From the human T2T-CHM13v2.0 reference genome, Homo sapiens: DNA of 64,000 nucleotides. A program made the position numbers and the translations under genes. The stretch's first letter is position 1. Each line of letters starts with the position of its first letter. The notes under the pieces are model-generated. The model saw only the letters and a program-made list of their open reading frames with translations. It was not told the origin of the DNA and ran no database searches. Positions 45,573-48,800 of this stretch are shown here, one piece after another. The DNA lies in assembly GCF_009914755.1 (NCBI RefSeq), contig NC_060928.1. One strand, written 5' to 3'.

Positions 45573-45863
45573 AATCTGTTTGGATGGCACTTTAATGATT
45601 CAAAAAATTGTTAGCTTTGACTAACATGGGTCAGCAGAAATAGAAAGGAATGAAGATAATTTAAAAATAAACACAGAGAGAAGGGAGAGACTGTGTCAAA
45701 GATGAATGTTGGGTTTCTGGCATACAAAGCGGAATCAATGCTCTTATCATTAAGCAAGATCAGAAGGGCTGAAAGTGAAATAATTATAAAGCAGAGACTA
45801 TGAATTTAGTTTTTTGCATGTGTATTTTGAAGTACTTTTGTAGCCTCCAAGTGTGTCTGTATA
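45573..45863 (+). repeat. Left arm of the ~290-bp inverted repeat
   Basis: Reverse complement of 57555-57847; manual alignment gives 6 substitutions and one 2-bp indel. Confidence 0.97.
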
Positions 45864-48800
45864 TTGTATATGTATACAGTATACACTTGTATATATGTAT
45901 ATATATGTGTATTTTGAAGTACTTTTGTAGCCTCCAAGTGTGTCTGTATATTGTATATGTATACAGTATACACTTGTATATATGTATATATATGTGTATT
46001 TTGAAGTACTTTTGTAGCCTCCAAGTGTGTCTGTATATTGTATATGTATACAGCATACACTTGTATATATGTATATATATGTGTATTTTGAAGTACTTTT
46101 GTAGCCTCCAAGTGTGTCTGTATATTGTATATGTATACAGCATACACTTGTATATATGTATATATATGTGTATTTTGAAGTACTTTTGTAGCCTCCAAGT
46201 GTGTCTGTATATTGTATATGTATACAGTATACACTTGTATATATGTATATATATGTGTATTTTGAAGTACTTTTGTAGCCTCCAAGTGTGTCTGTATATT
46301 GTATATGTATACAGTATACACTTGTATATATGTATATATATGTGTATTTTGAAGTACTTTTGTAGCCTCCAAGTGTGTCTGTATATTGTATATGTATACA
46401 GCATACACTTGTATATATGTATATATATGTGTATTTTGAAGTACTTTTGTAGCCTCCAAGTGTGTCTGTATATTGTATATGTATACAGCATACACTTGTA
46501 TATATGTATATATATGTGTATTTTGAAGTACTTTTGTAGCCTCCAAGTGTGTCTGTATATTGTATATGTATACAGTATACACTTGTATATATGTATATAT
46601 ATGTGTATTTTGAAGTACTTTTGTAGCCTCCAAGTGTGTCTGTATATTGTATATGTATACAGCATACACTTGTATATATGTATATATATGTGTATTTTGA
46701 AGTACTTTTGTAGCCTCCAAGTGTGTCTGTATATTGTATATGTATACAGTATACACTTGTATATATGTATATATATGTGTATTTTGAAGTACTTTTGTAG
46801 CCTCCAAGTGTGTCTGTATATTGTATATGTATACAGTATACACTTGTATATATGTATATATATGTGTATTTTGAAGTACTTTTGTAGCCTCCAAGTGTGT
46901 CTGTATATTGTATATGTATACAGTATACACTTGTATATATGTATATATATGTGTATTTTGAAGTACTTTTGTAGCCTCCAAGTGTGTCTGTATATTGTAT
47001 ATGTATACAGTATACACTTGTATATATGTATATATATGTGTATTTTGAAGTACTTTTGTAGCCTCCAAGTGTGTCTGTATATTGTATATGTATACAGCAT
47101 ACACTTGTATATATGTATATATATGTGTATTTTGAAGTACTTTTGTAGCCTCCAAGTGTGTCTGTATATTGTATATGTATACAGCATACACTTGTATATA
47201 TGTATATATATGTGTATTTTGAAGTACTTTTGTAGCCTCCAAGTGTGTCTGTATATTGTATATGTATACAGTATACACTTGTATATATGTATATATATGT
47301 GTATTTTGAAGTACTTTTGTAGCCTCCAAGTGTGTCTGTATATTGTATATGTATACAGTATACACTTGTATATATGTATATATATGTGTATTTTGAAGTA
47401 CTTTTGTAGCCTCCAAGTGTGTCTGTATATTGTATATGTATACAGCATACACTTGTATATATGTATATATATGTGTATTTTGAAGTACTTTTGTAGCCTC
47501 CAAGTGTGTCTGTATATTGTATATGTATACAGCATACACTTGTATATATGTATATATATGTGTATTTTGAAGTACTTTTGTAGCCTCCAAGTGTGTCTGT
47601 ATATTGTATATGTATACAGTATACACTTGTATATATGTATATATATGTGTATTTTGAAGTACTTTTGTAGCCTCCAAGTGTGTCTGTATATTGTATATGT
47701 ATACAGCATACACTTGTATATATGTATATATATGTGTATTTTGAAGTACTTTTGTAGCCTCCAAGTGTGTCTGTATATTGTATATGTATACAGTATACAC
47801 TTGTATATTTGTATATATATGTGTATTTTGAAGTACTTTTGTAGCCTCCAAGTGTGTCTGTATATTGTATATGTATACAGTATACACTTGTATATATGTA
47901 TATATATGTGTATTTTGAAGTACTTTTGTAGCCTCCAAGTGTGTCTGTATATTGTATATGTATACAGTATACACTTGTATATATGTATATATATGTGTAT
48001 TTTGAAGTACTTTTGTAGCCTCCAAGTGTGTCTGTAATTGTATATGTATACAGTATACACTTGTATATATGTATATATATGTGTATTTTGAAGTACTTTT
48101 GTAGCCTCCAAGTGTGTCTGTATATTGTATATGTATACAGTATACACTTGTATATATGTATATATATGTGTATTTTGAAGTACTTTTGTAGCCTCCAAGT
48201 GTGTCTGTATATTGTATATGTATACAGCATACACTTGTATATATGTATATATATGTGTATTTTGAAGTACTTTTGTAGCCTCCAAGTGTGTCTGTATATT
48301 GTATATGTATACAGTATACACTTGTATATATGTATATATATGTGTATTTTGAAGTACTTTTGTAGCCTCCAAGTGTGTCTGTATATTGTATATGTATACA
48401 GTATACACTTGTATATATGTATATATATGTGTATTTTGAAGTACTTTTGTAGCCTCCAAGTGTGTCTGTATATTGTATATGTATACAGTATACACTTGTA
48501 TATATGTATATATATGTGTATTTTGAAGTACTTTTGTAGCCTCCAAGTGTGTCTGTATATTGTATATGTATACAGTATACACTTGTATATATGTATATAT
48601 ATGTGTATTTTGAAGTACTTTTGTAGCCTCCAAGTGTGTCTGTATATTGTATATGTATACAGCATACACTTGTATATATGTATATATATGTGTATTTTGA
48701 AGTACTTTTGTAGCCTCCAAGTGTGTCTGTATATTGTATATGTATACAGTATACACTTGTATATATGTATATATATGTGTATTTTGAAGTACTTTTGTAG

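What the first reader, a model, noticed from the sequence alone, without database searches (positions are those of the whole stretch)
45848..45889. Every 87-bp unit carries a 16-bp hairpin, and the one common polymorphic base is its bulge
Seen: in each unit CAAGTGTGTCTGTATA pairs with TATACAG(Y)ATACACTTG across a 9-nt loop (TTGTATATG), giving 15 Watson-Crick pairs, one G-T pair and one unpaired base, which is the T/C variable site (unit position 63). The short 3' arm resembles the start of the large right arm (TATACAGATACCCTTG); it matches the right arm at one discriminating site and the left arm at the other, so it may preserve the ancestral state. With T, TGTATAC-A-GTATACA forms a second palindrome that C breaks. 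Inference: the unit is left-arm end + loop + abortive copy of the right arm + TA spacer, as expected from repeated template switching, and the array is a chain of 135 potential hairpins or cruciforms.
Basis: partly seen in the sequence, partly recalled or inferred. Interest (0 to 1): 0.7.

Follow-up and report, generated by a model that had tools for sequence, protein, structure and literature searches.

The report
Minisatellite copied from a palindrome's centre
An AT-rich 87-base human repeat, 135 copies long, sits inside an inverted duplication whose centre it likely copied, so nearly every copy carries a predicted DNA hairpin; its one common variant lies on an unpaired base, likely with no special meaning, as in other known hairpin minisatellites.

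Summary
The 16-pair hairpin (15 Watson-Crick, 1 G-T, 9-nt loop) is intact in 131 of 135 units. It folds better than shuffles (z about -3), and the T/C site (83 T, 52 C) is the + strand bulge. The array (45818-57558) is single-locus and sits between ~290-bp inverted arms. The unit is a direct copy of that palindrome's centre, which already held a 25-bp tandem duplication, so the hairpin is likely inherited. The bulge coincidence carries little weight: T and C fold alike (-8.5 kcal/mol), 54 of 87 positions are neutral to the hairpin, and rare variants hit the stem at the chance rate (3 of 8). The T/C pattern and recurrent rare variants point to copying of 9-13-unit blocks, not repeated inverted template switching. 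Cruciforms look unlikely (about +30 kcal/mol); hairpins would form only in single-stranded DNA. Precedents are MSY1 and the WDR7 VNTR, whose stronger stem also keeps its common variants outside it. The nesting inside a long inverted duplication is the one unusual trait. Verdict: a new member of a known kind, modest interest.

The parts
45573..45863 (+). Left arm of a single-copy inverted duplication (~290 bp); its last 46 bp are also the start of unit 1
   Evidence: pairs with 57555-57847; 7 difference events; outer 245 bp 98% identical, with no other match in the assembly
57555..57847 (-). Right arm of the inverted duplication
45818..57558 (+). 87-bp minisatellite, 135 units, 28% GC, no CpG in the T unit, single locus
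45848..45863 (+). 5' arm of the unit hairpin (unit positions 31-46) = inner end of the left arm
45864..45872 (+). 9-nt loop (unit positions 47-55)
45873..45889 (+). Short 3' arm (unit positions 56-72), a copy of the right-arm start with one inserted base
45880..45880 (+). Inserted and bulged base, unit position 63: T in 83 units, C in 52; T in the first two and last three units
45890..45909 (+). TA-rich spacer and unit junction: a 10-nt TA-rich word repeated (9 of 10 identical), with three junction-specific bases
57521..57570 (+). Imperfect 25-bp direct tandem duplication (loop + right-arm start) with 3-nt microhomology at its ends; likely source of the short 3' arm
   Evidence: (period 25, 57524-57570)
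57476..57599 (+). Terminal 45-bp inverted repeat (last unit's left-arm copy with the right arm), the strongest local hairpin
   Evidence: (I3)

Best explanation
This is an AT-rich, single-locus 87-bp minisatellite lying between ~290-bp inverted arms; its unit is a direct copy of that palindrome's centre, so the predicted hairpin is likely inherited, the array likely grew by copying multi-unit blocks, and the bulged T/C site is likely a neutral marker. Inferred order: (1) a local inverted duplication made ~290-bp arms with a short spacer; (2) slippage at a 3-nt microhomology duplicated ~25 bp (loop + right-arm start), giving a short arm that pairs with the left-arm end, and a T was inserted, likely templated by the 7-nt word just upstream, which it makes a perfect direct repeat; (3) slippage between TA-rich microhomologies duplicated 84 bp plus 3 junction bases, founding the 87-bp unit; (4) one T>C transition arose early and was spread, with rarer variants, by out-of-register copying of blocks of several units (SDSA, gene conversion or unequal sister exchange). 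Hairpins in transiently single-stranded DNA may promote stalling and slippage, as proposed for MSY1, but that role is not shown here. Shown: anatomy, folding energies, allele counts, block structure, single locus. Inferred: order of events, repair pathway, T as the ancestral allele.
For: Inverted arms 45573-45863 / 57555-57847, single copy in the assembly. 25-bp direct duplication at the right end. All unit segments lie in direct orientation to the one-unit centre. T and C units have the same MFE, -8.5. 54 of 87 positions are hairpin-neutral, and 3 of 8 rare variant sites fall in the 32-nt stem (2.9 expected). No compensatory pair among 6 units chosen to show variants. T/C string: 52 distinct 7-mers against 74.5 in shuffles (0 of 1000), LZ complexity 18 against 21.3 (p=0.0075). 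Recurrent rare variants share contexts of 9, 13, 9 and 12 units against a mean of 3.2 for random pairs. Löytynoja and Goldman did not observe template-switch events whose return point precedes the exit point (PMC5453318 passages), which a fold-back origin of the short arm would need (my mapping). In the WDR7 VNTR the common variants also lie outside the stem.
Against: No ape or second human allele was available, so order and age are untested. The hairpin is stronger than in 11 of 11 control VNTR rows (z -4.0 against none at or below -3), so structure may have helped select this unit for expansion; those controls are GC-rich and few. The longest repeated T/C block alone (15 units) is not significant (p=0.17). 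The amplified 46 bp differ from the right arm more than the outer arm does (4/46 against 3/245, p=0.013), which is unexplained.
Confidence: 0.72

Rival explanations
1. One reading: the short arm was made by fold-back (hairpin-primed) copying of the left arm, and repeated template switching built the array.
For: The short arm matches the left arm's reverse complement at one of two discriminating sites. A strong terminal hairpin exists. Template switching was reported for the WDR7 VNTR (PMC8327921 passage).
Against: It needs 4 changes against 3 for an ancestral-copy model. A direct 25-bp slip gives the same sequence. It needs a return point upstream of the exit point, a class not observed in PMC5453318. 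No inverted unit occurs: 131 forward and 0 reverse motif matches. Block structure points to multi-unit copying. It could still hold for the single founding event.
Confidence: 0.15
2. The hairpin is needed for expansion, so units with an intact stem are preferentially amplified and only an unpaired site such as the bulge can carry a common variant, or the bulge is itself a mutation hot spot.
For: z -4.0 for the unit, none of 11 control rows at or below -3. The only common variant is unpaired, and the same holds for the common WDR7 variants. MSY1's fixed unit length is cited as support for hairpin involvement (PMC2599865 passages).
Against: There is only one common site, and the prior chance that it is hairpin-neutral is 54/87. 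Stem-breaking T41C was itself copied to two units. Rare variants are not depleted in the stem. Only two alleles occur at position 63, consistent with one mutation.
Confidence: 0.11
3. The array length or its variant pattern is an assembly or cell-line artefact.
For: Units are 99% identical; only one assembly was seen; three single-unit indels could be consensus errors.
Against: The non-periodic T/C string and the rare variants recurring in shared contexts are not what a collapsed or looped assembly gives. The flanks are unique and join cleanly.
Confidence: 0.02

Closest known systems
MSY1 (Y-chromosome minisatellite)
   Same: 75% A+T, base-substitution unit variants, unit predicted to form a hairpin. 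The authors favour hairpins in transient ssDNA plus SDSA over cruciform repair (PMC2599865 passages).
   Different: 25-bp unit, variants in homogeneous blocks, haploid. Here the unit is 87 bp, T/C are interspersed, and the locus is autosomal and nested in long inverted arms.
WDR7 69-bp human-specific VNTR
   Same: Single-locus VNTR whose unit has a 16-17-bp stem and 8-nt loop. Its common variants (positions 14, 17, 41, 61) are outside that stem; one rare variant is inside. Reported to expand by duplication and template switching.
   Different: Perfect, stronger stem (-15.8 kcal/mol), intronic and transcribed, with no flanking inverted repeat (flank score 15 against 475). The chr4 array is intergenic with an imperfect stem.
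FRA10B / FRA16B AT-rich minisatellite fragile sites
   Same: Multi-kb AT-rich minisatellite with secondary-structure potential. FRA10B is fragile above 5 kb, and this array is 11.7 kb (PMC9714581, PMC2875025 passages).
   Different: FRA10B is 91% AT against 72% here; units are 42 and 33 bp. No fragility is shown here, and the term 4q32 does not occur in that review.
Short-range template-switch inverted repeats (four-point model)
   Same: A known process that creates local inverted repeats with short spacers in human DNA (PMC5453318); a candidate origin for the 290-bp arms.
   Different: The model concerns short events and single rounds; it does not describe tandem amplification of the centre.

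Membership tests
Minisatellite / VNTR | Head-to-tail units of 7 bp or more at one locus | tested here: met
   135 x 87 bp; all 131 motif matches counted for the assembly equal the intact units of this array
Minisatellite / VNTR | Interspersed variant units with block duplication | tested here: met
Minisatellite / VNTR | Copy number varies between people | not testable with these tools
   only one human assembly is held
Hairpin-unit minisatellite (MSY1/WDR7 type) | Unit predicted to fold into a stem-loop beyond composition | tested here: met
   z -2.5 to -3.4 for single units and the hairpin segment; -4.0 with best rotation
Hairpin-unit minisatellite (MSY1/WDR7 type) | Structure shown to form or to affect mutation | not testable with these tools
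   needs probing or pedigree data
Human-specific VNTR expansion | Monomer or short array in apes | not testable with these tools
   no ape genome is held; not found among the 467 VNTRs of PMC8327921
AT-rich rare fragile site (FRA10B/FRA16B) | AT-rich minisatellite over 5 kb | tested here: inconclusive
   11.7 kb but 72% AT, against 91% for FRA10B
AT-rich rare fragile site (FRA10B/FRA16B) | Cytogenetic gap induced by distamycin A or BrdU | not testable with these tools
   bench test
Cruciform-extruding inverted repeat | Near-perfect arms, short loop, low extrusion cost | tested here: not met
   9-nt loop, bulge and mismatch; net cost +29.5 (T) and +31.4 (C) kcal/mol against +9.4 for the nearby (TA)15 (junction and supercoiling terms not modelled)
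Transposon terminal inverted repeat / MITE | Dispersed copies in the genome | tested here: not met
   the outer arm matches only itself and the right arm; one search found only three weak TA-rich matches elsewhere
miRNA-like structured RNA array | Rfam match at gathering score; covariation | tested here: not met
   best 27.7 bits against a gathering score of 90 over 45300-46300; no compensatory pair; no gene annotated in the window

The most novel reading that the evidence does not exclude
A snapshot of a palindrome defusing itself: the hairpin tip of a 290-bp inverted duplication seeded a minisatellite whose growth pushed the outer arms 11.7 kb apart. The unit hairpin and the terminal 45-bp stem still drive expansion, leaving an unrecognised AT-rich fragile or invertible cassette at 4q. 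If general, palindrome centres would be a distinct birthplace for large minisatellites.
Probability: 0.12. Interest if true: 0.55.

Novelty: new member of a known kind. Interest (0 to 1): 0.24.

Why it matters
The locus keeps both its single-copy progenitor (the palindrome centre) and a 135-unit binary T/C barcode, so it is a clean case for tracing minisatellite birth and turnover in pangenome data. The hairpin-with-variable-bulge itself has precedents, no predicted energetic effect, and no gene nearby. It would matter more only if the array proved fragile or invertible, or if palindrome-centred arrays proved to be a class.

Tried and rejected
Stem protection from variants: not seen (3 of 8 rare sites, p=1.0). 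Energy difference between T and C alleles: none in MFE. T-allele second palindrome as a competing fold: under 4%. Cruciform chain: cost about +30 kcal/mol. Dispersed family or MITE: no other copy; the hits L001-L003 are TA-rich simple sequence. Structured RNA: only weak matches to TG/TA-rich miRNA models far below gathering score. Gradient of C along the array: none (10, 10, 13, 9, 10 per 27 units). Flanking inverted repeat as a general VNTR trait: absent at WDR7 and in 7 of 7 control rows with both flanks. Listed polymorphic inversion: five coordinate prefixes not found in the supplements of PMC10150506. Prior description: none found in searches or supplement searches; the hit PMC10871260 concerned an L1 in SPOCK3. 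Course 2020 and Sulovari 2019 could not be read.

Full report
Observation. The stated pairing is in the sequence and is the DNA minimum-energy fold of 45848-45889: 16 pairs, a 9-nt loop and one bulge at unit position 63. The array runs 45818-57558 with 135 units. Position 63 is T in 83 and C in 52 units. Eight other variant sites occur in 9 units: positions 8, 21 (x3), 27, 41 (x2), 45, 56, 78, 84. 131 of 135 units keep the whole stem. The hairpin is not a composition effect: -8.5 kcal/mol against -3.5 +/- 1.5 in shuffles, with 3 of 500 as low. It is reached by 37 of 7360 background 42-nt windows and by 1 of 3541 GC-matched ones.

Does the bulge coincidence mean anything? T and C hairpins have the same MFE on the + strand and differ by 0.2 kcal/mol on the - strand, where the site sits in a 3x2 internal loop, not a single bulge. 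A transition leaves the hairpin energy unchanged at 9 of the 42 hairpin positions, and 45 positions lie outside it. One common variant therefore has a 54/87 chance of being hairpin-neutral. Hitting this exact base is 1/87 but was noticed after the fact. Rare variants fall in the 32 paired positions 3 times of 8 (2.9 expected), and one stem-breaking variant was copied to two units. Six units chosen to show variants gave no compensatory change. The base is a bulge because it is an insertion relative to both long arms. With T it completes a 7-nt direct repeat as well as the small palindrome, so T is likely the templated original and C a later transition; T occupies both ends of the array (inference). 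The small T palindrome is worth -1.6 kcal/mol and is not populated.

Context. The array lies between inverted arms 45573-45863 and 57555-57847, with 7 difference events. The outer 245 bp are 98% identical and match nothing else in the assembly. The hairpin motif has 131 forward and 0 reverse matches genome-wide, equal to the intact units here; the 100 listed places are all in this array. The right end preserves the one-unit centre: left-arm end, loop, short arm, TA spacer, right arm. Loop plus short arm and spacer plus right-arm start form an imperfect 25-bp direct duplication with a 3-nt microhomology. The unit is 84 bp of this centre plus three junction bases within a repeated TA-rich 10-mer. 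No inverted copying is needed to build the unit from the centre. At two sites the short arm carries the majority base of the three sequences. Taking it as ancestral costs 3 changes against 4, a weak preference that needs an outgroup. A fold-back origin would need the polymerase to return upstream of where it left. By my mapping that is the class not observed in human-chimp data (PMC5453318, passages).

Amplification. The T/C string is interspersed but not random. It has 52 distinct 7-mers against 74.5 (0 of 1000 shuffles), 10 repeated blocks of 11 or more units against 2.9 (p=0.006), and LZ complexity 18 against 21.3 (p=0.0075). The longest block alone is not significant (p=0.17), nor is the runs test (p=0.08). 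Units sharing T21A (55, 79, 125) share contexts of 9, 13 and 9 units, and those sharing T41C (99, 120) share 12. Random T-unit pairs average 3.2, and 6.4% reach 9. Blocks near 1 kb were therefore likely copied to non-adjacent places, which fits out-of-register repair between sisters or alleles; the pathway is inferred.

Structure in cells. Converting duplex to two hairpins costs about +30 kcal/mol per unit, against +9.4 for the (TA)15 at 45505-45534, with junction and supercoiling terms not modelled. Cruciforms in internal units are thus unlikely. In single-stranded DNA the hairpins are predicted to be well populated at 37 C. The strongest local structure is the terminal 45-bp stem, -42.8 kcal/mol, which replaces the last unit's hairpin. 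A genome-wide ssDNA study found cruciform motifs depleted of signal and could not say whether they fail to form or escape detection (PMC12637528, passages).

Comparison. MSY1 is a 75% AT minisatellite with a predicted unit hairpin, for which ssDNA hairpins and SDSA are favoured (PMC2599865, passages). For the WDR7 VNTR (motif from the PMC8327921 supplement; located), 16 units examined show a perfect stem at -15.8 kcal/mol. Its common variants lie at 4 sites outside that stem and one rare variant lies inside. Hairpin units with variation in unpaired sites are thus already known. In a small control (200 kb of chr7 subtelomere; 11 TRF rows, two of them one array cut at a border; all 60-78% GC) none reached z -3 and one reached -2. 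None of the 7 with both flanks had inverted flanks (scores 17-27 against 475 here; WDR7 15). How common such units are among AT-rich VNTRs stays open. FRA10B and FRA16B are the fragile-site analogues (PMC9714581, PMC2875025, passages), but they are richer in AT.

Prior description. I found none in searches. In PMC8327921 (abstract, passages, supplements 2-3) a motif search was negative, and among the first 30 of 75 chr4 places, sorted as text, no row lies between 147 Mb and the entry at 17.4 Mb. The supplements of PMC11168930 (one file unreadable) and PMC10150506 were also negative. Hoyt et al. (bioRxiv 10.1101/2021.07.12.451456; section 5 and passages) curated 13 interstitial satellite arrays whose table is an image and whose supplements I could not see, so this array may be among them. 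The main supplements of PMC12058530 were too large to read. Course 2020 and Sulovari 2019 were not readable; WDR7 claims come. The 4q32 band, the neighbours TLL1 and SPOCK3, and the satellite names used are recalled.

Verdict. The hairpin is real. It is likely an inherited by-product in a minisatellite born from a palindrome centre, and the variable bulge is likely neutral. New member of a known kind; interest 0.24.

Noticed in passing
window 35833-41868 (+): Full-length-looking young LINE-1: GC-rich 5' UTR under the RefSeq enhancer rows, a 338-aa first ORF, the second ORF split into 850-aa and 368-aa pieces, a poly(A) tail and a ~13-bp target-site duplication. A human-specific subfamily is my recollection, not tested. 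It ends about 3.7 kb from the left arm.
   Followed up: partly
window 45818-45863 vs 57555-57600: The amplified inner 46 bp differ from the right arm at 4 sites, the outer 245 bp by 3 events (Fisher p=0.013): faster change at the hairpin tip or homogenisation of the outer arms. Unexplained.
   Followed up: partly
window 45505-45534 and 57999-58271: A (TA)15 tract lies ~40 bp outside the left arm and a very AT-rich low-complexity stretch ~150 bp outside the right arm; these are candidate stall or switch points for the inverted duplication.
   Followed up: no
window 45573-57847: 290-bp inverted arms around an 11.7-kb array could allow the whole array to invert; not found by coordinate prefix in the PMC10150506 supplements.
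   Followed up: partly
window 45818-57558: The T/C string has positive autocorrelation at lags 3, 6, 9, 12, 15 (about 0.15-0.17), suggesting an early three-unit higher-order repeat. The array is absent from the longest masked stretches listed in the annotation note.
   Followed up: no
window 45829-45923: In tandem context the self-complementary 8-mer at unit positions 13-20 pairs with its copy in the next unit and encloses the main hairpin in a multibranch fold.
   Followed up: no
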